A stretch of DNA of 64,000 nt from Acidobacteriia bacterium AH_259_A11_L15 (GTDB lineage: Bacteria > Acidobacteriota > Terriglobia > Acidiferrales > 2-02-FULL-67-57). Within the stretch, counting starts at the first letter, position 1. Every line of letters begins with the position of its first letter. The position numbers and the translations under genes are program-made. The notes under the pieces were generated by a model that was given only the letters and a program-made list of their open reading frames with translations, was not told the DNA's origin and did not search any database. The stretch lies in assembly GCA_027717655.1 (NCBI GenBank), contig JALLOH010000002.1, positions 3,474 to 67,473 of the forward strand, in the 5' to 3' direction. This document shows positions 25,818 to 63,933 of this stretch, one piece after another.

Positions 25818-28436
25818 CTAGCGGGCCCGGGCGACCACCAGAGTCACGTCATCTTCCTGCTCGCGGCCGCTGAACTCCTGCACAGTGCTGACCAGAGTGT
25901 GGAGCAAAGAATCCACGGGCAAGTGGCCGTGGGCGCGCAGGGCCTTGACGAATCGGGCGTCGCCGAACTCCTCCCCTTCGTCGCTCATCGCCTCCGTGAC
26001 CCCATCGGAAAAGATCACCAGCGTGTCGCCCGGAGCCAGCGACACTTCAGCGACGGAACACTCCCACTTCTCGAACATCCCCAGGACCGTAGCGGTGGCT
26101 GTCAGTCGTTCTACCGTTCCGTCGCCGCGCAGGAGCAGCGGCGGGTTGTGCCCGCAATTGGCGTAGCGTAGGCGGCGCGTGGCGTCGTCGTAGCTCCCGA
26201 AGAAAAGGGTGGCGTAGTGACCGGCTCCGGTGGACTCACATAACAGGCGGTTCACCGATGCGAGCAGCCGCGGCAGGTCGTCCGGAGCCACCGCGGACTG
26301 GCCGCGCAGATGGGCCTGCAAGTTGGCCATCAACAAGGCGGCGGAGATGCCTTTCCCCACAATGTCGGCCAGCACCAGCCCCACCTGGCCGCGCCCCAGG
26401 TCGAGAAAGTCGTAGTAGTCGCCACCCACCGCGCGGGTCTGGATGCAGTCGCCGACGTATTCCAGCGTCTCCAGCAACGGCGTGTGCCGGGGAAAGAGAT
26501 TGGCCTGCACCTCTTTGGCGATTTCCATCTCGCGGGCCGCGCGCCGTTCGGCCTCCAGCCGCTCGGCCATCTGCTCGGCTAGGCCGATGCTCTCGAGCGC
26601 GGTGCCAGCCTGGCTGGCAACGGAAGCCAGCAAGCGCTTGTCCTCACCCGCGTAGGGTTCTTCGGAGCGTCGCCGGCCCAGGACCAAGAGGCCTGTCAGC
26701 CGGGCGTCGCGCCCCAGGATCGGCACCAAGCACTCGGGCTCGAGCGGGCCTAGTAGCGAAAGTGCTTCGGCACCGCCGGCCTCCGGCGGTGGCACGTCCC
26801 AGGGTTGGCCGCGCGCTACCTCGGCCAGCACCGGCAGCGAGGTGGGAATGGTTTCCAGTCCAGGCGGCACCGCGCCGCCCTCAGCGGCGAGGCGGTCGTC
26901 GCTGCTCTCAAGATAAATAGTCAGGGTGGTTGGACGGAGAGCTTCAGTGATGTGGTGTTCCAGTAACGCGGCCAGCTGCTGCCGGTTGGTCGCCGTGCGG
27001 GTTTTCTCCGCCAGCTCTTCGAAAATCTGGCGGGCGTCGTAGGCGCTGCGGAAGAAGGCCCGGTCAATGCGTTCGCTGACCCGCCTTTGGACTTGTGCGC
27101 CGGCCCAGGCCAACAGCAAGCCGAAGGCCACCCCCGTACCCACGCCGGCGGGCACGACGAATTCCACCCGCGGCTGGACAAAACGCGCGAAGAGACCCAT
27201 GAAGAGAAGGGTCGCGGCCACGCTCGAGACAACTGTAAGAAGCGCAAAGCCGCGCTGCACCAGCAGGTAGCGGGCGCTCCTCTTCAGAAGCAGCGAGACT
27301 CCCAGTACGCGATGCTTCACCACCGCGTAGGCAAACGACAGCGGCAACAAGAAGAGGGCCAAGACGCAGGGGGCCCACACCCAAAAAGGAAATTCGTAAG
27401 GATTTTTCTTGGCGTAGGCTGCCGCCGCCTGTAGCAGCAAGGCCGGCGTGAAGCCGACTACAGTGCCCCAGACAATGACTCGGATCTTCCTCCGTGCCTC
27501 GGCGGTGGGGGCGCGGAGCCCGTTCCACACTAGCGACACCAGGCCCAGCACAAATGCGCCAAAGAAATAGGGTGACACGCACAAAAACGTTACTGTCTGA
27601 CCCAGCCGATCAGCAAACCCCAGTAGCGGCTGGGAACTGCCCGCCAGCAGCCCCCACAGCCCCAAGGGCACCACCACGGCGGCTGCGGCCACGAGCAAAA
27701 CCGACTTCAACCAGGGCAGGCGGCGATCTACCGGAGAGGCAACGGGAAAAACAGCAAAGAAGTAGTAGAAGAACGCCGCGTATAATCCCATGAACGTCAC
27801 CTTGTAAGCCAGCGCGAACCCGCGCAAGGCGGGATGGATGGCTCTTTCCATCTGCAGTAGCGGCGCGCCCGCAATGAAGCTGGCAAACAGCAGCGCCAGC
27901 AGCCAAGCGTTGCGGTCTTCCAGCCGCAGGAACAACACCCCTAAGCCCACCACCAGGAACAAGACGGGGTAGGAACGAAGAAGCTCGACGGCCACGGTCT
28001 GCGCCGGCGTCAGCTCCTCCTCCTCCTGTGCCGGCCGGGGTTGCAATACCGTCTGCAGGACTATCGGCGCTGCCGCCCCCGGTCGCTCTACAGTCAACTC
28101 AACCACATCCCCGGGCTGGCCTTGATACACCGCATCAGAGTAGGGATTGGGGGTGTCGAGCCGGCGACCGTTGATGGCCACAATCCTGTCCTCAGGCCGC
28201 AACCCCGCGCGCTCAGCCGCGCTGCCTTCCGGGACGCGGGTGACGCGCATCGAGCGCGTAAGCATCGAGAATGGGGCCTCGGTGCTGATGCCGATTTGGG
28301 CCTTGGACTCCCAACGAATGTAGTACATCCAGATAGCGCTGTAGAGGATGGTGGCGACGGCGAAGAGCGTCGCCAGCCCCAGCAACAACGGTCGCGGCAG
28401 TGAGGTGAAGCCTCGCATCGCGGTCGTAGGGCCCAT
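25818..28436 (-). CDS. membrane PDZ - polytopic TM - GAF-like - PP2C (SpoIIE-type) protein phosphatase
   Basis: N-terminal TM, PDZ (GSAAERAGLRPEDRIVAINGRRL), about 8 TM helices, GAF-like region, C-terminal PP2C (GGDYYDF...VLADIVGKGISAALLMA...IFSDGVTE...DDVTLVVAR). Confidence 0.85.
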   Translation of the reverse strand: MGPTTAMRGFTSLPRPLLLGLATLFAVATILYSAIWMYYIRWESKAQIGISTEAPFSMLTRSMRVTRVPEGSAAERAGLRPEDRIVAINGRRLDTPNPYSDAVYQGQPGDVVELTVERPGAAAPIVLQTVLQPRPAQEEEELTPAQTVAVELLRSYPVLFLVVGLGVLFLRLEDRNAWLLALLFASFIAGAPLLQMERAIHPALRGFALAYKVTFMGLYAAFFYYFFAVFPVASPVDRRLPWLKSVLLVAAAAVVVPLGLWGLLAGSSQPLLGFADRLGQTVTFLCVSPYFFGAFVLGLVSLVWNGLRAPTAEARRKIRVIVWGTVVGFTPALLLQAAAAYAKKNPYEFPFWVWAPCVLALFLLPLSFAYAVVKHRVLGVSLLLKRSARYLLVQRGFALLTVVSSVAATLLFMGLFARFVQPRVEFVVPAGVGTGVAFGLLLAWAGAQVQRRVSERIDRAFFRSAYDARQIFEELAEKTRTATNRQQLAALLEHHITEALRPTTLTIYLESSDDRLAAEGGAVPPGLETIPTSLPVLAEVARGQPWDVPPPEAGGAEALSLLGPLEPECLVPILGRDARLTGLLVLGRRRSEEPYAGEDKRLLASVASQAGTALESIGLAEQMAERLEAERRAAREMEIAKEVQANLFPRHTPLLETLEYVGDCIQTRAVGGDYYDFLDLGRGQVGLVLADIVGKGISAALLMANLQAHLRGQSAVAPDDLPRLLASVNRLLCESTGAGHYATLFFGSYDDATRRLRYANCGHNPPLLLRGDGTVERLTATATVLGMFEKWECSVAEVSLAPGDTLVIFSDGVTEAMSDEGEEFGDARFVKALRAHGHLPVDSLLHTLVSTVQEFSGREQEDDVTLVVARAR

Positions 28437-28457
28437 TATACGCGCCCTGATGGGCGC

Positions 28458-28991
28458 CTACTCTCCCAGGTCGGGTTCAACTTGCAGGGCGTCGTTGAAG
28501 CGGTTGGTGAGGTTGGCCACGGCGACCACTAGAGTCAATTCGACGATTTGGTCCTCGCTGTAGTGCTTTTTCAACTCTTCGAGCGAACCTTCGCGGAGGG
28601 CGGCCGCCCCGCGGGTCATGCGCTCGGCAAAGAGCAGGGTGGCTTTCTCCTTGGCGTCGAACTGCTCGCTACGGCGGTAGAAATCAATCGCCCGGAGTTG
28701 ATCCTCGGTCAGGCCGGCCCGCTTCGCCGAAGCGGTGTGGGCGCGAGTTCAATACTCGCAGCCGTTCAGCCGGGCGGTCTTCAGGTAGGCCAGCTCCTTG
28801 TACTTTTGTTCGATGGTGCCGTCGGCCATCACCGCAGCGTAGAAGGGCAGGAAGTTCTTGAGCGCGCTGGGCCGGTGGGCCATCACCGCGAAGATGTTGG
28901 GCATGCGGCCGAACTTTTGGCTCAACTGGTCATAGATGGCCTGCAGCTCCGAGGCTGCTTGGTCCTTGGGAATTGGCTTGACGACCGGCAT
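28458..28991 (-). CDS. AhpD-like / carboxymuconolactone decarboxylase family protein, predicted selenoprotein (in-frame UGA at 28749-28751)
   Basis: ...YLKTARLNGCEY-UGA-TRAHTASAKRAGLTEDQL... Here UGA replaces the second Cys of the family CxxC..H motif. The same frame stays open for 96 more codons to TAG 28458-28460. AAGGAGG RBS lies before ATG 28991 (alternative ATG at 28997). Confidence 0.75.
28719..28735 (-). promoter_or_regulatory. SECIS-like hairpin downstream of the UGA
   Basis: mRNA CCGCUUC-GGC-GAAGCGG: 7-bp stem starting 13 nt after the UGA, with a G-rich apical loop about 21 nt from the UGA. Confidence 0.5.
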
Positions 28992-29203
28992 AAACATTCC
29001 CTCCTTTGCCAGTAACGTGGGGAAATCCCAGTCTAGCGGGTCTGCTGGGCCGGCGCAACCCCGCCCGTTCCGAAGTGACAGCAAGTTTGTTCTTGCCCGC
29101 GCGGCAATCAACCCGGAGTTTGAGCGGAATTCCAAGAACGGGCGGGGTTGACGCGCCCGCGGTTTCCTGTTACATCTCTTCAAACCGAAGCCCGACTGCG
29201 GGC

Positions 29204-29221
29204 GCGCCCGAATTCGGGCGC
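29204..29221. promoter_or_regulatory. perfect 18-bp palindrome GCGCCCGAATTCGGGCGC in the divergent AhpD-like/MBL intergenic region
   Basis: Perfect dyad symmetry read directly from the sequence. It lies downstream of a TTGACG-17-TACATC promoter-like element (29148-29176), so it is a candidate operator or leader hairpin. Confidence 0.3.
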
Positions 29222-29236
29222 AGAAGGGGCAGGGCC

Positions 29237-30034
29237 ACGGGGGTTGAACTCACCATCCTGGGCAGCGGTTCGGCGGGCAACCTGGCGTTTCTCTCCACCG
29301 AGCGCACCCGCCTGCTGATCGACGCCGGCCTCTCCAAGCGGGAAACCCTGAAGCGGATGGAAACCGCCGGACTGCGCCCCAACGGGCTGGCCGGCATCGT
29401 CGTCTCCCACGAGCACAACGACCACGCGGCTCACCTGGGGGCGCTGGCCGAGGAGTTCAACGCCCCGGTCTACTTGGCCGAGGGCACCCGCGAGGCCCTG
29501 CCGGAGGCGCGAGTGCTGCCGCGGGTGGAACGCTTCCGGCCCGGGCACCGCTTCGTGGTGGGCGACATCGAGATGGTTCCCTTCGCCGTCCCCCACGACG
29601 CCAACGAGCCCGTGGCCTTCCGCGTCGAAACCCAGGGCGTCAAACTCGTCCTGGCGGTCGACCTGGGCTTCCTGACCGGCCTGGTCAAGCAGCAGTTGCG
29701 CGGCTGCGACTGCTTGATCCTGGAGGCCAACCACGACACCGAGATGCTCCGCCGCGGCCCCTATCCCTGGTTCATCAAGCAGCGCGTAATGAGCCGCCTG
29801 GGACACCTCTCGAACGAAGCCGTGGCCGACTTCCTGGAGTGCGACTTCGACGGCTCGGCTGCCTATCTGGTGCTCGCCCACCTGAGCCAGAACAACAACT
29901 CGCCCGAGATTGCCCGCCTGGCCGCCGAGCAGGCCCTCGAGCGTCGCCGGGCGCGCTTCCCGCTCTCGCTGGTGCGCGACCCCGAGATTCGCGTGGCCCC
30001 TCGCCGCGCCCCTCTGGCTCCGCTGCGCTTCTAA
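29237..30034 (+). CDS. MBL-fold metallo-hydrolase (YycJ/WalJ-like)
   Basis: ELTILGSGSAGN...LLIDAGLS...VVSHEHNDHAAHLG...EANHD...GHLSN. The start is unresolved: there is no ATG/GTG/TTG near the conserved N-terminus. ACG 29237 lies 7 nt after GAAGGGG. The ORF-track start 29006 and TTG 29120 lie upstream of the promoter-like element. Confidence 0.75.
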   Translation, partial: TGVELTILGSGSAGNLAFLSTERTRLLIDAGLSKRETLKRMETAGLRPNGLAGIVVSHEHNDHAAHLGALAEEFNAPVYLAEGTREALPEARVLPRVERFRPGHRFVVGDIEMVPFAVPHDANEPVAFRVETQGVKLVLAVDLGFLTGLVKQQLRGCDCLILEANHDTEMLRRGPYPWFIKQRVMSRLGHLSNEAVADFLECDFDGSAAYLVLAHLSQNNNSPEIARLAAEQALERRRARFPLSLVRDPEIRVAPRRAPLAPLRF

Positions 30035-47679: not shown

Positions 47680-47917
47680 GGGAAAGGTCAGGCCGGTACG
47701 GCCTTGCCGGGTAAGCCCGCTCCCGGCGCTGGGTAGTGGGTCAGTTTGGTTGTAGCGGCGGTCTATGACCGCCGAAGCTGCGTTTTTAACGGGCACCGGC
47801 GCTCCCAGAGCGCCGCTACAGCAACCCGTCCCACTACCGAATGGCTTTCAATGGGAATCTAATTCAATCTGACCCACTACCCGGCGCTGGCCGCACCCCA
47901 GAAGTGTGGGGCCGGTG

Positions 47918-47926
47918 TGCTATACT
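47918..47926 (+). promoter_or_regulatory. extended -10 element TGCTATACT upstream of efp
   Basis: TGnTATACT lies 37 nt upstream of the efp ATG. The same 9-mer recurs upstream of infC (57678) and a 1-mismatch variant occurs at 63967. Confidence 0.3.
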
Positions 47927-47962
47927 GGGTTGTCAAGAACACTTCATCGAGGCTGGCAAGCG

Positions 47963-48529
47963 ATGGCCACAGTCCAAGCCACCAAGCTCCGTCCCAGGAT
48001 GGTGATTCAATTGGACGGGGACCTCTACTCCATTTTCAGCCTCAACCACCGCACGCCCGGCAACAAGCGCGGGTTTGTGCGGGCGAAGCTGCGCGACCTG
48101 AACAGCGGAGCCATGATCGAGCACCGGTTCAGCTCGGAAGATTTCGTCGAGCGCGCCTACCTGGACGAAAAAGAGGTAGAATTCCTGTACCGGGAAGGCG
48201 ACGTTTTCACCTTTATGGATACCAGCACCTACGAGCAGTACCCCTTGAACCGGGAGGCTCTGGGGAGCACCGTCGGCTACCTCACCCCCAACGGCCGGTT
48301 GCAGGTGACGTTCTTCCAGGGCAAGCCGCTGGGCATCGAGCTGCCCGCTTCGGTGGAGTTGAAGGTGGTGGAGACCGAGCCGGGCATCAAGGGCGCCTCG
48401 GCCACCAACGTCACCAAGCCGGCCAAGCTCGAGACCGGCCTCACCGTGCAGGTTCCGCCCTTCGTGAATGAGGGCGAAGTGATCCGTGTGGATACGGCCG
48501 AAGGCACTTACCTGGAACGGGTGCGCTAA
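47963..48529 (+). CDS. efp: elongation factor P
   Basis: Three-domain EF-P pattern (LRPRMVIQLDGDLY..., GFVRAKLRDL, TEPGIKGASATNVTKPAKLETG). ATG at 47963. Confidence 0.93.
   Translation: MATVQATKLRPRMVIQLDGDLYSIFSLNHRTPGNKRGFVRAKLRDLNSGAMIEHRFSSEDFVERAYLDEKEVEFLYREGDVFTFMDTSTYEQYPLNREALGSTVGYLTPNGRLQVTFFQGKPLGIELPASVELKVVETEPGIKGASATNVTKPAKLETGLTVQVPPFVNEGEVIRVDTAEGTYLERVR

Positions 48530-48948: not shown

Positions 48949-48952
<4 letters not shown>
48608..48952 (+). CDS. PilZ domain protein
   Basis: RREHSR (RxxxR) and DLSLGG (D/NxSxxG) c-di-GMP-binding motifs. TTG start. Confidence 0.75.
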
Positions 48953-50415
<1,463 letters not shown>

Positions 50416-50585: not shown

Positions 50586-51185
50586 GTGGCCGCCACCACC
50601 GAAGACCAGCTCAGCCAACTCGAGAAAGACATCCGCCAGCTGCAAATCGAATACGACAGCTACTTTGCCGGCGGCCGCAAACGACCCCCCAGCGACACCG
50701 AGTGGCGGGTAAAGACCACTATCAGCAAGTTTTCGGAGCAGATCGGGCGGCTCAAGTATGCCCAGAGCTTCCGCTTCAACAACCTGGCGGCGCGCTACGC
50801 CAAGTTCAGCGAAATGTGGCGGAAGCGGCTCAAGAAGACGGAGGCGGGCCACAGCGCCTACGCCTACAGCAAGGTGGCGCGGGAGCTGGACCAGAAGCGC
50901 CTGGAAGAGGCCAGCCGGCAGCACGAAGCCCACCTGCATCACCAGACCACCCAGGTGGCCTTCAGCGACCCGCGGCGCGAATCCGAGAAAGTGCAGTCGC
51001 TCTACCGCAGCATGCTGGAAGCCAAGAAGGCCGCCGGCCAAGAGGCAGGCATCAACTTCGAGCAGTTCCACAAGTTTGTGCGGCAGAAAACCCAGCAGTT
51101 GAAGAAGCAGCTCGGTTGCCAGCAGGTGCAGTACTCGGTCTCGGTCGAACGCGGCCAGGTGAAGTTGAAGGCGAAGGGGGCGTAG
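50586..51185 (+). CDS. conserved hypothetical coiled-coil protein
   Basis: GTG start, coding-like composition (QLEKDIRQLQIEYDSYFAGGRKRPP...). Family not confidently recognised. Confidence 0.6.
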   Translation: MAATTEDQLSQLEKDIRQLQIEYDSYFAGGRKRPPSDTEWRVKTTISKFSEQIGRLKYAQSFRFNNLAARYAKFSEMWRKRLKKTEAGHSAYAYSKVARELDQKRLEEASRQHEAHLHHQTTQVAFSDPRRESEKVQSLYRSMLEAKKAAGQEAGINFEQFHKFVRQKTQQLKKQLGCQQVQYSVSVERGQVKLKAKGA

Positions 51186-63736: not shown

Positions 63737-63933
63737 GGACTACGCCTGCGACGTTCGTGAGGGTGCTCGGGATAAACTGAGCCAACAGACGAAGAATGGG
63801 AGTTCGGGTCGCGTGCTGGTGAGCATGTCCCGAATCTTCGGGAAAGCCTAAAGGCGCGCGCAGAACACCCACCTGAACGTACGGTTCAGGCTACCAAGTG
63901 CCCCACGGCGCCGGCGGACGTAGTTCTCTTTTT
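63737..63933 (+). ncRNA. ssrS: candidate 6S RNA
   Basis: An ORF-free stretch of about 197 nt directly downstream of zapA, the conserved ssrS position in E. coli. The 5' end GGACUACG pairs with the 3' end CGUAGUUC, followed by a U-run. A long imperfect rod is possible (for example CGUGAGGGUGCUCGG with CCAAGUGCCCCACG). Confidence 0.45.

What the first reader, a model, noticed from the sequence alone, without database searches (positions are those of the whole stretch)
28458..28997. Probable unannotated selenoprotein: AhpD/CMD-family gene with C-x-x-U motif read through an in-frame UGA, plus a SECIS-like hairpin
The ORF track ends a 144-aa ORF at TGA 28749-28751. That TGA falls exactly where AhpD-like/carboxymuconolactone-decarboxylase-family proteins carry the second Cys of their redox motif: ...ARLNGCEY[TGA]TRAHTASAK..., against a family pattern of about N-x-C-x-Y-C-x-x-x-H. 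The same frame continues for 96 more sense codons (...LTLVVAVANLTNRFNDALQVEPDLGE*) to TAG 28458-28460. This gives about 177-179 aa, the normal size for the family. Thirteen nt after the UGA the mRNA can form CCGCUUC-GGC-GAAGCGG (28719-28735). Its G-containing apical loop is about 21 nt from the UGA, which is the spacing expected for bacterial SECIS elements. selA lies in the same window (48949..50415), so the organism very likely decodes UGA as Sec. AhpD-like Sec proteins are a known selenoprotein class, but standard ORF calling truncates this one.
Basis: partly seen in the sequence, partly recalled or inferred. Interest (0 to 1): 0.75.

Follow-up and report, generated by a model that had tools for sequence, protein, structure and literature searches.

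The report
Unannotated AhpD-like selenoprotein gene
An in-frame TGA in a small redox-enzyme gene of a soil-type acidobacterium encodes selenocysteine rather than a stop, so GenBank splits the gene in two; this is a real but ordinary new member of a selenoprotein family known since 2005.

Summary
On the minus strand, one frame runs from ATG 28991 through TGA 28751-28749 to TAG 28460-28458 (177 aa). It matches Pfam CMD across the TGA and NCBIfam TIGR01926 above its cutoff. The TGA sits at the second Cys of the AhpD C-x-x-C motif.

- 59 species genomes and 78 of the 80 best metagenome relatives carry TGA at this codon, followed by 95-96 open codons.
- Downstream dN/dS is 0.11-0.22.
- The 7-bp hairpin at 28735-28719 is kept in 99.4% of cells, with compensatory changes at three pairs.
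- Third codon positions inside the hairpin are almost frozen (at most 0.13 bit, against 1.32 elsewhere).
- selA is present in the window, and TGA ends the PurH ORF, so the code is standard.
- selB, selC and selD are not in the window and could not be tested.

The source is Acidobacteriia bacterium AH_259_A11_L15. GenBank splits the gene into an 80-aa and a 53-aa CDS.

The family (AhpD-like, COG2128/TIGR01926, CxxU) has been a described selenoprotein family since 2005, so this is a new member of a known kind and of low interest.

Side notes:
- A syntenic sister clade has Glu at this codon.
- One Cys form still keeps the hairpin.
- Some database entries translate the TGA as Trp.

The parts
28458..28991 (-). 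Complete coding sequence of the AhpD-like selenoprotein: 177 aa, Sec at residue 81, stop TAG 28460-28458.
   Evidence: The frame is read through. It matches Pfam CMD and TIGR01926. Full-length homologues are aligned. Fifty-four loci have at least 90 open codons after the TGA. GenBank annotates only 28752-28991 (80 aa) and 28461-28619 (53 aa).
29000..29005 (-). Shine-Dalgarno-like AGGAGG, 8 nt upstream of ATG 28991.
   Evidence: Read directly from the sequence. That it functions as a ribosome-binding site is inferred.
28749..28751 (-). In-frame TGA, read as the selenocysteine codon Sec81. It aligns with the second Cys of the C-x-x-C motif.
   Evidence: TGA stands at this codon in 125 related loci, against 6 with Cys and 5 with Glu codons. 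Seventy-eight of the 80 unbiased metagenome relatives carry it.
28737..28796 (-). Active-site segment: Glu66 (28796-28794), Cys78 (28760-28758), Tyr80 (28754-28752), Sec81 and His85 (28739-28737).
   Evidence: The alignment to PA0269 (2O4D/2IJC) pairs ELAYLKTARLNGCEYCTRAH with ELVYLRTSQINGCAYCVNMH. The PA0269 proton-relay residues Glu36, Cys48, Tyr50, Cys51 and His55 are given in PMC3141380. E, Y, R and A in this segment are invariant, and C and H nearly invariant, in alignment A1.
28719..28735 (-). SECIS hairpin within the coding sequence: 5' arm 28735-28729, loop GGC 28728-28726, 3' arm 28725-28719.
   Evidence: Single-sequence fold. Across 52 orthologous loci, 99.4% of cells are paired, 3 of 7 pairs show compensatory changes (18 cells), and 0 of 500 shuffles reach this. 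Third-position entropy is at most 0.13 bit in codons +6 to +9, against a mean of 1.32 bit elsewhere.
48949..50415 (-). selA, L-seryl-tRNA(Sec) selenium transferase: the only Sec-machinery gene in the window.
   Evidence: TIGR00474 at 544.8 bits, cutoff 267.9. GenBank gives it the same name (MDA2912473.1).

Best explanation
The gene at 28991-28458 (minus strand) encodes a 177-aa AhpD-like thiol/selenol oxidoreductase of the CMD superfamily (COG2128/TIGR01926 type). Its active-site motif is Cys78-Glu-Tyr-Sec81, followed by His85 and preceded by Glu66.

The UGA at 28751-28749 is recoded to selenocysteine. The 7-bp hairpin that starts 13 nt downstream serves as the bacterial SECIS element. It would recruit SelB carrying Sec-tRNA(Sec) to the ribosome stalled at the UGA. 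That tRNA is charged through SelA, which is encoded 20 kb away in the same window.

Sec takes the place of the second Cys of the AhpD C-x-x-C pair (Cys51 of PA0269, Cys133 of M. tuberculosis AhpD). The protein would then cycle between a selenol/thiol state and a selenenylsulfide state to reduce a peroxiredoxin partner or a peroxide.

Shown here:
- the frame continues through the TGA;
- the product belongs to the family;
- the TGA, the downstream coding sequence and the hairpin are all conserved;
- selA is present.

Inferred:
- Sec is actually inserted;
- SelB binds the hairpin;
- the redox substrate.
For: **Frame and family**
- One frame runs through the TGA.
- Pfam CMD matches at 6.5e-19, with the TGA in the middle of the profile. 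TIGR01926 scores 87.5 bits against a cutoff of 81.8.
- The solved homologue PA0269 matches at 3e-23, with its relay residues E, C, Y, C and H aligned.

**Conservation of the TGA**
- The N-G-C-E-Y-TGA-x-R-A-H pattern matched 63 genome loci, and 54 loci (53 of them plus the window itself) have at least 90 open codons after the TGA.
- Seventy-eight of 80 metagenome relatives carry the TGA. These were picked with peptide patterns away from the site.

**Selection downstream of the TGA**
- dN/dS is 0.11-0.22 against the closest orthologues, as low as upstream of the TGA.

**Hairpin**
- 99.4% of cells are paired.
- Compensatory changes: C-G to U-A at two pairs and U-A to C-G at one pair.
- No shuffle out of 500 reaches the observed values, and slid registers pair only 34-55% of cells.
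- Synonymous sites inside the stem are frozen in 113 distinct genes.
- The specific hairpin is absent from Cys and Glu forms, except for one very recent Sec-to-Cys convert.

**Sec machinery and genetic code**
- selA is present.
- TGA closes the PurH ORF and 22 of 60 long ORFs in the window, so the genetic code is standard.

**Literature**
- The family is a described CxxU selenoprotein family.
Against: - No selB, selD or tRNA-Sec lies in the 64-kb window. The selB and selD queries were E. coli sequences recalled from memory.
- Folding this one sequence is not significant on its own: z = -0.89 in a 64% G+C context.
- No Rfam SECIS family matches the region.
- There is no experimental evidence of Se incorporation.
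- The closest syntenic clade has replaced the residue with Glu, which shows that the lineage can dispense with Sec.
Confidence: 0.95

Rival explanations
1. The gene is a pseudogene. A TGC/TGT-to-TGA nonsense mutation at the Cys codon killed it, and the downstream frame is a relic that has not yet decayed.
For: TGC to TGA is a single substitution. Decayed copies do exist elsewhere: L011 and L043 are remnants and L055 is an internally deleted copy. GenBank annotates two fragments.
Against: The same TGA stands in more than 120 loci from several phyla, each followed by 95-96 open codons. Downstream dN/dS is 0.11-0.22. A hairpin showing covariation follows the TGA. selA is intact.
Confidence: 0.01
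2. UGA is reassigned to a standard amino acid in this organism (Trp or Gly, genetic codes 4 or 25), so no Sec is involved.
For: Seven of the 120 best database homologues show Trp at the site.
Against: The one Trp entry that was checked has TGA in its DNA and does not translate to the database protein under code 11, so the Trp comes from the source pipeline. In this window TGA closes the ORF I read as PurH (its product ends ...RHFRH, which I recall as the usual PurH C-terminus; the ORF was not scanned against any family library) and 22 of 60 long ORFs. Many orthologues themselves end on TGA right after codon 95-96. The genome is 64% G+C.
Confidence: 0.005
3. Translation mostly stops at the UGA and yields an 80-aa product. 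Alternatively, it reads through with a near-cognate tRNA (Trp or Cys) without the Sec pathway, and the hairpin merely slows the ribosome.
For: Termination and near-cognate read-through compete with Sec insertion at every bacterial Sec codon (general knowledge). selB, selC and selD were not seen here.
Against: The 80-aa fragment lacks half of the CMD domain, including His85. The placement at the catalytic Cys column, the hairpin with a G-containing loop at the expected spacing, and selA in the same contig all fit the Sec pathway.
Confidence: 0.03
4. These are two independent small genes, as annotated in GenBank: an 80-aa CMD fragment and a 53-aa hypothetical protein.
For: The GenBank records MDA2912454.1 and MDA2912453.1.
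Against: The 43 codons between the TGA and the ATG of the 53-aa ORF are as conserved as the rest of the gene and match the CMD profile. No full-length homologue is split at this point.
Confidence: 0.005

Closest known systems
AhpD-like protein selenoprotein family (COG2128 / TIGR01926, motif CxxU), first described from the Sargasso Sea metagenome (Zhang et al. 2005, PMC1088965) and listed in a 2026 review (PMC13188914).
   Same: Same domain (TIGR01926 above cutoff). Same CxxU motif, with Sec at the second Cys. A bacterial SECIS-type hairpin with a G in a small apical loop lies just downstream of the UGA.
   Different: No difference in kind. This copy comes from an acidobacterium (Acidobacteriia bacterium AH_259_A11_L15) and is unannotated in GenBank. 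The clade it belongs to, in soil and groundwater Acidobacteriota and Rokubacteria, is almost entirely Sec-containing in the loci sampled here.
PA0269 of Pseudomonas aeruginosa (PDB 2O4D/2IJC), an AhpD-like protein with weak peroxidase activity.
   Same: Best solved relative, at E = 3e-23. The relay residues Glu36, Cys48, Tyr50, Cys51 and His55 align with Glu66, Cys78, Tyr80, Sec81 and His85.
   Different: PA0269 has Cys rather than Sec. It is shorter (145 aa) and lacks the roughly 50-residue N-terminal segment.
Mycobacterium tuberculosis AhpD (Glu118, Cys130, His132, Cys133, His137).
   Same: Same spacing of the catalytic residues, E-12-C-x-x-C-4-H (PMC3141380). The likely chemistry is the same: reduction of an oxidised peroxiredoxin through a mixed disulfide, here a selenenylsulfide.
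   Different: Low overall similarity, and the helical motif sits at a different place in the chain. No ahpC neighbour was found next to the gene: the two flanking genes, the only ones scanned, are not ahpC. The partner is unknown.
NCBIfam NF053654 'GroundWater_YciW, YciW-related (seleno)protein'.
   Same: Top-scoring NCBIfam model by E-value (6.6e-26), covering residues 6-173 of the 179-aa query that starts at ATG 28997.
   Different: It scores 91 bits against a cutoff of 310, so the window protein is not a member of that equivalog.
E. coli fdhF-type bacterial SECIS.
   Same: A hairpin inside the coding sequence, shortly after the UGA, with G then G/U at the start of a small apical loop. The comparison with fdhF and with the published spacing range of 16-37 nt rests on my own recollection.
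   Different: A short perfect 7-bp stem with a 3-nt loop and no bulged U. No Rfam SECIS model matches it.

Membership tests
AhpD-like selenoprotein family (COG2128/TIGR01926, CxxU) | AhpD/CMD core domain; the whole protein scores above the TIGR01926 cutoff. | tested here: met
   PF02627 at 6.5e-19. TIGR01926 at 87.5 bits, cutoff 81.8. TIGR00778 ahpD_dom at 39.7 bits, cutoff 27.8.
AhpD-like selenoprotein family (COG2128/TIGR01926, CxxU) | An in-frame TGA aligned with the second Cys of C-x-x-C in Cys homologues. | tested here: met
   Alignment A1. Ninety-eight of the 120 best database homologues are CxxCxxxH. PA0269 alignment.
AhpD-like selenoprotein family (COG2128/TIGR01926, CxxU) | Proton-relay residues Glu (-15 from Sec) and His (+4 from Sec) are kept. 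| tested here: met
   Glu66 is invariant and His85 nearly invariant in A1 (numbered E68 and H87 there).
AhpD-like selenoprotein family (COG2128/TIGR01926, CxxU) | The coding sequence continues after the TGA and is under purifying selection. | tested here: met
   There are 95-96 open codons after the TGA in 54 loci. dN/dS is 0.11-0.22.
Bacterial selenoprotein gene (SelB/SECIS-dependent recoding) | A conserved stem-loop just 3' of the UGA, with a small G-containing apical loop. | tested here: met
   A 7-bp stem with loop G-G/U-C, the loop beginning 21 nt after the UGA. 99.4% of cells are paired and 3 pairs show compensatory changes. Synonymous sites in the stem are frozen.
Bacterial selenoprotein gene (SelB/SECIS-dependent recoding) | The genome encodes selA. 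| tested here: met
   TIGR00474 at 544.8 bits.
Bacterial selenoprotein gene (SelB/SECIS-dependent recoding) | The genome encodes selB, selD and tRNA-Sec (selC). | not testable with these tools
   None lies in the 64-kb window: ARAGORN found 0 tRNAs and tblastn with recalled E. coli SelB and SelD gave no hit. The other contigs of the assembly could not be fetched; a look-up that might have extended the contig found nothing.
Bacterial selenoprotein gene (SelB/SECIS-dependent recoding) | Selenium is actually incorporated at the UGA. | not testable with these tools
   This needs 75Se labelling or mass spectrometry.
NF053654 YciW-related (seleno)protein (equivalog) | Score at or above the curated cutoff of 310 bits. 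| tested here: not met
   91.1 bits.
Rfam bacterial SECIS families | A covariance-model match. | tested here: not met
   No SECIS family matched at E <= 10 on 28650-28800, nor at gathering score on the whole window.

The most novel reading that the evidence does not exclude
The AhpD-like selenoprotein may be more than a housekeeping antioxidant. It could be the redox-sensing input of the PDZ-SpoIIE (PP2C) phosphatase gene that starts 21 nt downstream. The same neighbour is found in the two closest Sec-form loci, L036 and L038. The syntenic sister clade has swapped Sec for Glu and is losing Cys78 or His85, which would mark a switch of that module to a non-redox role. The gene order and the Glu clade are observed; the functional link is pure inference.
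Probability: 0.08. Interest if true: 0.5.

Novelty: new member of a known kind. Interest (0 to 1): 0.25.

Why it matters
The main value is as an annotation correction. The gene is split into two meaningless CDS in GenBank. The same error, or a TGA-to-Trp mistranslation, affects most members of a clade that is abundant in soil and groundwater Acidobacteriota and Rokubacteria. Protein databases therefore under-represent it, and the homologues that do appear are biased toward the rarer Cys and Glu forms.

It adds one selenoprotein, and evidence of the Sec-decoding trait, to this acidobacterial genome. The strongly conserved SECIS alignment is a clean example of an RNA element constraining synonymous sites. 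It changes nothing about how selenoproteins are thought to work.

Tried and rejected
- **Single-sequence folding.** The hairpin is the minimum-free-energy structure, but z is only -0.89 at 64% G+C, so folding one sequence is not diagnostic. The free energies of Cys and Glu forms overlap those of Sec forms. Only the in-register comparison is informative.
- **Rfam.** No SECIS family matched, either at gathering score or at E <= 10.
- **selB and selD.** tblastn with E. coli sequences recalled from memory gave no hit in the window. ARAGORN found no tRNA-Sec.
- **Reaching the rest of the 81.7-kb contig.** A look-up through the ThrRS gene found no record.
- **Scan for other TGA read-through candidates.** I compared GC3 on both sides of every in-frame TGA in the window. 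Only this gene stood out. The other high-GC3 cases are gene boundaries or antisense frames (judged by eye and not followed up).
- **Explanations rejected.** Pseudogene, code 4/25 and two separate genes were all rejected, for the reasons given under the rival explanations.

Full report
**1. What is in the sequence**

On the minus strand, one reading frame runs from ATG 28997 or 28991 through TGA 28751-28749. It continues for 96 sense codons to TAG 28460-28458.

AGGAGG at 29005-29000 lies 8 nt upstream of ATG 28991 and only 2 nt upstream of 28997. Homologues start M-[A/P]-V-V. The true start is therefore most likely 28991, giving a 177-aa product with the TGA as codon 81.

The hairpin CCGCUUC-GGC-GAAGCGG occupies 28735-28719. 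It starts 13 nt after the UGA, and its loop begins at the 21st nt after the UGA.

**2. Family**

With Cys placed at the TGA, the product matches Pfam CMD (PF02627) at 6.5e-19, over profile positions 1-82 of 84. The piece before the TGA matches profile positions 1-40 and the piece after it matches 43-83, so the TGA sits in the middle of one domain.

NCBIfam TIGR01926 'peroxidase-related enzyme' scores 87.5 bits, above its cutoff of 81.8. The AhpD core domain model TIGR00778 also passes its cutoff. The best-scoring name, NF053654 'YciW-related (seleno)protein', is far below its cutoff (91 against 310 bits), so the protein is not a member of that equivalog.

The best solved relative is P. aeruginosa PA0269 (2IJC/2O4D, E = 3e-23). 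ELAYLKTARLNGCEYCTRAH aligns to ELVYLRTSQINGCAYCVNMH. The PA0269 paper defines a proton relay of Glu36, Cys48, Tyr50, Cys51 and His55, equivalent to Glu118, Cys130, His132, Cys133 and His137 of M. tuberculosis AhpD (PMC3141380). The window protein has Glu66, Cys78, Tyr80, [TGA]81 and His85 at exactly these positions.

**3. Is the TGA conserved?**

I made one scan of 185,579 species-representative genomes for the degenerate DNA pattern N-G-C-E-Y-TGA-x-R-A-H. It returned 63 loci. My own estimate of the chance expectation is about 0.3.

The loci come from:
- Acidobacteriota (Terriglobia, Acidiferrales, Bryobacterales, Pyrinomonadaceae, Blastocatellia);
- Rokubacteria/Methylomirabilota;
- Dormibacterota;
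- Gemmatimonadota;
- Thermodesulfobacteriota;
- Myxococcota.

In 54 loci (53 of the 63, plus the window itself) the frame stays open for at least 90 codons after the TGA, almost always 95-96. Six of the 63 are cut off by the end of the stored locus. L002 is a chance match, L011 and L043 are short remnants, and L055 is an internally deleted copy.

A second, unbiased sample came from a metagenome scan seeded on peptide patterns far from the site ([HYF][YFL][STD][ED][DG]QIVE and G[TS][VIL]E[APQ][KR][YH]KE). Of the 80 best relatives, 78 carry TGA and 2 carry TGT. In the clade this gene belongs to, the Sec form is therefore the rule.

**4. Is the downstream part coding?**

Nei-Gojobori comparison of the window with its closest orthologues gives these values for the 92 codons after the TGA:
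- L006: dN/dS = 0.122/1.109;
- L034: 0.126/0.839;
- L065: 0.126/0.667;
- L036: 0.161/0.724.

That is 0.11-0.22, as low as or lower than for the 76 codons before the TGA. Amino-acid identity is in fact higher after the TGA than before it for most loci.

**5. The hairpin**

In an ungapped alignment of 52 loci (A2), the 7-bp stem forms a standard pair in 99.4% of cells. Three of the seven pairs show compensatory double changes:
- C-G to U-A, 12 times at the outermost pair;
- C-G to U-A, 5 times at the next pair;
- U-A to C-G, once.

No shuffle out of 500 reaches the observed pairing or covariation score. Sliding the 3' arm by 1-3 columns drops pairing to 34-55%. RNAalifold independently predicts exactly this stem and nothing else.

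The loop is G-(G/U)-C. Across 113 distinct Sec-form genes, the third codon positions of codons +6 to +9 (GCU UCG GCG AAG) have entropy of at most 0.13 bit. The mean over the other 162 codons is 1.32 bit, and only one of those is as conserved. This is the signature of an RNA element laid over coding sequence.

The specific hairpin is missing from the Cys forms L125, L140, L149, L150 and L151, and from the Glu forms L144-L148. The exception is L152, which has TGC and is 94-96% identical to TGA forms. It still carries the intact hairpin, so it is evidently a very recent Sec-to-Cys change.

Folding the window sequence alone is not significant (z = -0.89), and no Rfam SECIS model matches. The evidence for the element is comparative.

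[quoted passage not shown] It also rests on my recollection of the 16-37-nt spacing rule, which I did not verify here.

**6. Sec machinery and genetic code**

selA (48949-50415, minus strand) scores 544.8 bits on TIGR00474. No tRNA gene lies in the window. tblastn with E. coli SelB and SelD sequences recalled from memory found nothing. These genes must lie elsewhere in the genome, if they are present, and this could not be tested.

TGA is an ordinary stop here. It closes the ORF I read as PurH, whose product ends ...RHFRH (the usual PurH C-terminus as I recall it; the ORF was not scanned against a family library), and 22 of 60 ORFs of at least 300 codons. Many orthologues of the gene end on TGA themselves. 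A reassigned genetic code is therefore excluded.

**7. Source and annotation**

Exact-sequence look-ups place the window in Acidobacteriia bacterium AH_259_A11_L15, on an 81,727-bp contig. In GenBank the gene appears as two CDS: MDA2912454.1 (80 aa, 'carboxymuconolactone decarboxylase family protein') and MDA2912453.1 (53 aa, hypothetical, MYX77_00575). The same split is seen in Ca. Acidoferrales and Terriglobia MAGs. The claim that standard calling truncates the gene is correct.

**8. Comparison with what is known**

'AhpD-like protein' (COG2128), with the redox motif CxxU, was reported as a new selenoprotein family from the Sargasso Sea in 2005, with 27 sequences (PMC1088965). It was found in complete bacterial genomes in 2006 (PMC1794560). 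A 2026 review lists it as 'AhpD-like protein, TIGR01926, CxxU' (PMC13188914), and it is a browsable family in BSepDB. The window gene meets every feature of that family that could be tested here. It is a new, unannotated member of a known kind.

**9. Mechanism**

Shown:
- recoding-compatible gene anatomy;
- a conserved SECIS-type hairpin;
- selA;
- a complete AhpD relay with Sec at the second-Cys position.

Inferred: SelB carrying Sec-tRNA(Sec) binds the hairpin and inserts Sec at UGA81. The enzyme then cycles between a Cys78-SH/Sec81-SeH state and a selenenylsulfide state to reduce an oxidised peroxiredoxin or a peroxide, as AhpD does.

The partner is unknown. The two flanking genes are a divergently transcribed MBL-fold hydrolase and a PDZ-SpoIIE phosphatase, and neither is ahpC.

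**10. Rivals**

I rate each rival at 3% or less.
- Pseudogene: ruled out by the conservation of the TGA, of the downstream coding sequence and of the hairpin.
- Reassigned code: ruled out by the use of TGA as a stop.
- Two separate genes: ruled out by the conserved 43 codons between the fragments.
- SECIS-independent read-through, or termination as the main outcome: cannot be excluded without experiment, but does not fit the anatomy.

**11. Side observations**

- The six closest full-length proteins in the database (70-73% identity) carry Glu, not Cys, at the site.
- Their loci have GAA or GAG there. They lack the hairpin and share the divergent MBL-fold neighbour with the window.
- In a rough NJ tree, they form the sister group of the window gene. 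The window's closest relatives by identity are Sec forms (L036 and L038). This suggests a Sec-to-Glu replacement.
- One member has also lost Cys78 (to Ser) and another has lost His85 (to Arg).
- Seven of the 120 best database proteins show Trp at the site. The one that was checked has TGA in its DNA.

**Verdict**

The finding is of low novelty.

Noticed in passing
L144-L148 (metagenome loci; gene at L144:3001-3531, L146:3001-3534, L147:2023-2556): The syntenic sister clade of the window gene has GAA or GAG (Glu) at the Sec codon and no hairpin. In some members Cys78 has become Ser (L144) or His85 has become Arg (L147). This looks like loss of Sec followed by decay of the redox motif. These Glu forms are the top hits in protein databases only because the Sec forms are truncated there.
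   Followed up: partly
L152:238-771 (protein P0013): A Cys form (TGC) that still carries the intact SECIS hairpin ACCGCUUCGUCGAAGCGG. It is 94-96% identical to the TGA forms L101 and L105-L107, so it is a very recent Sec-to-Cys conversion.
   Followed up: partly
P0016, P0028, P0036, P0040, P0043, P0047, P0114; DNA checked at L153:380-913: Seven of the 120 best database homologues have Trp at the Sec position. In the one that was checked, the DNA has TGA and the locus does not translate to the database protein under code 11. The source pipeline translated the Sec codon as Trp.
   Followed up: partly
window 25818-28457 (minus strand): An 872-aa PDZ + SpoIIE/PP2C phosphatase gene starts at ATG 28436, only 21 nt after the selenoprotein stop. 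A GCGCCC-AUCA-GGGCGC hairpin (28457-28442) fills that gap. The same downstream neighbour occurs in the closest Sec-form loci L036 and L038, so the two genes may be co-transcribed.
   Followed up: partly
window 29201-30034 (plus strand): A divergently transcribed MBL-fold hydrolase gene. This neighbour is conserved next to the AhpD-like gene in 12 related loci, both Sec and Glu forms (L006, L013, L034, L036, L038, L049, L051, L144-L148).
   Followed up: partly
L032 and L063 (Nannocystaceae genomes): Distant homologues (about 25% identity) also have TGA at the same motif position. Their downstream hairpin is different, GACCUC-CGUGCC-GAGGUC, so the Sec site is shared but the SECIS sequence is not.
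   Followed up: no
L011:176-205 and L043:4293-4322 (Bryobacterales); L055:5612-5641: Decayed copies. L011 and L043 keep only about 36 codons around the TGA, with a mismatch in the stem. L055 is an internally deleted gene.
   Followed up: no
window 63740-63924 (plus strand): 6S RNA (Rfam RF00013, 84.8 bits, full length).
   Followed up: no
window 48949-50415 and its flanks: selA stands alone. No selB lies next to it, as there would be in many bacteria. On one side is an ORF I take to be EF-P from its sequence (47906-48529, plus strand; not scanned against any family library). On the other is an ORF that was not characterised (50586-51185, plus strand).
   Followed up: partly
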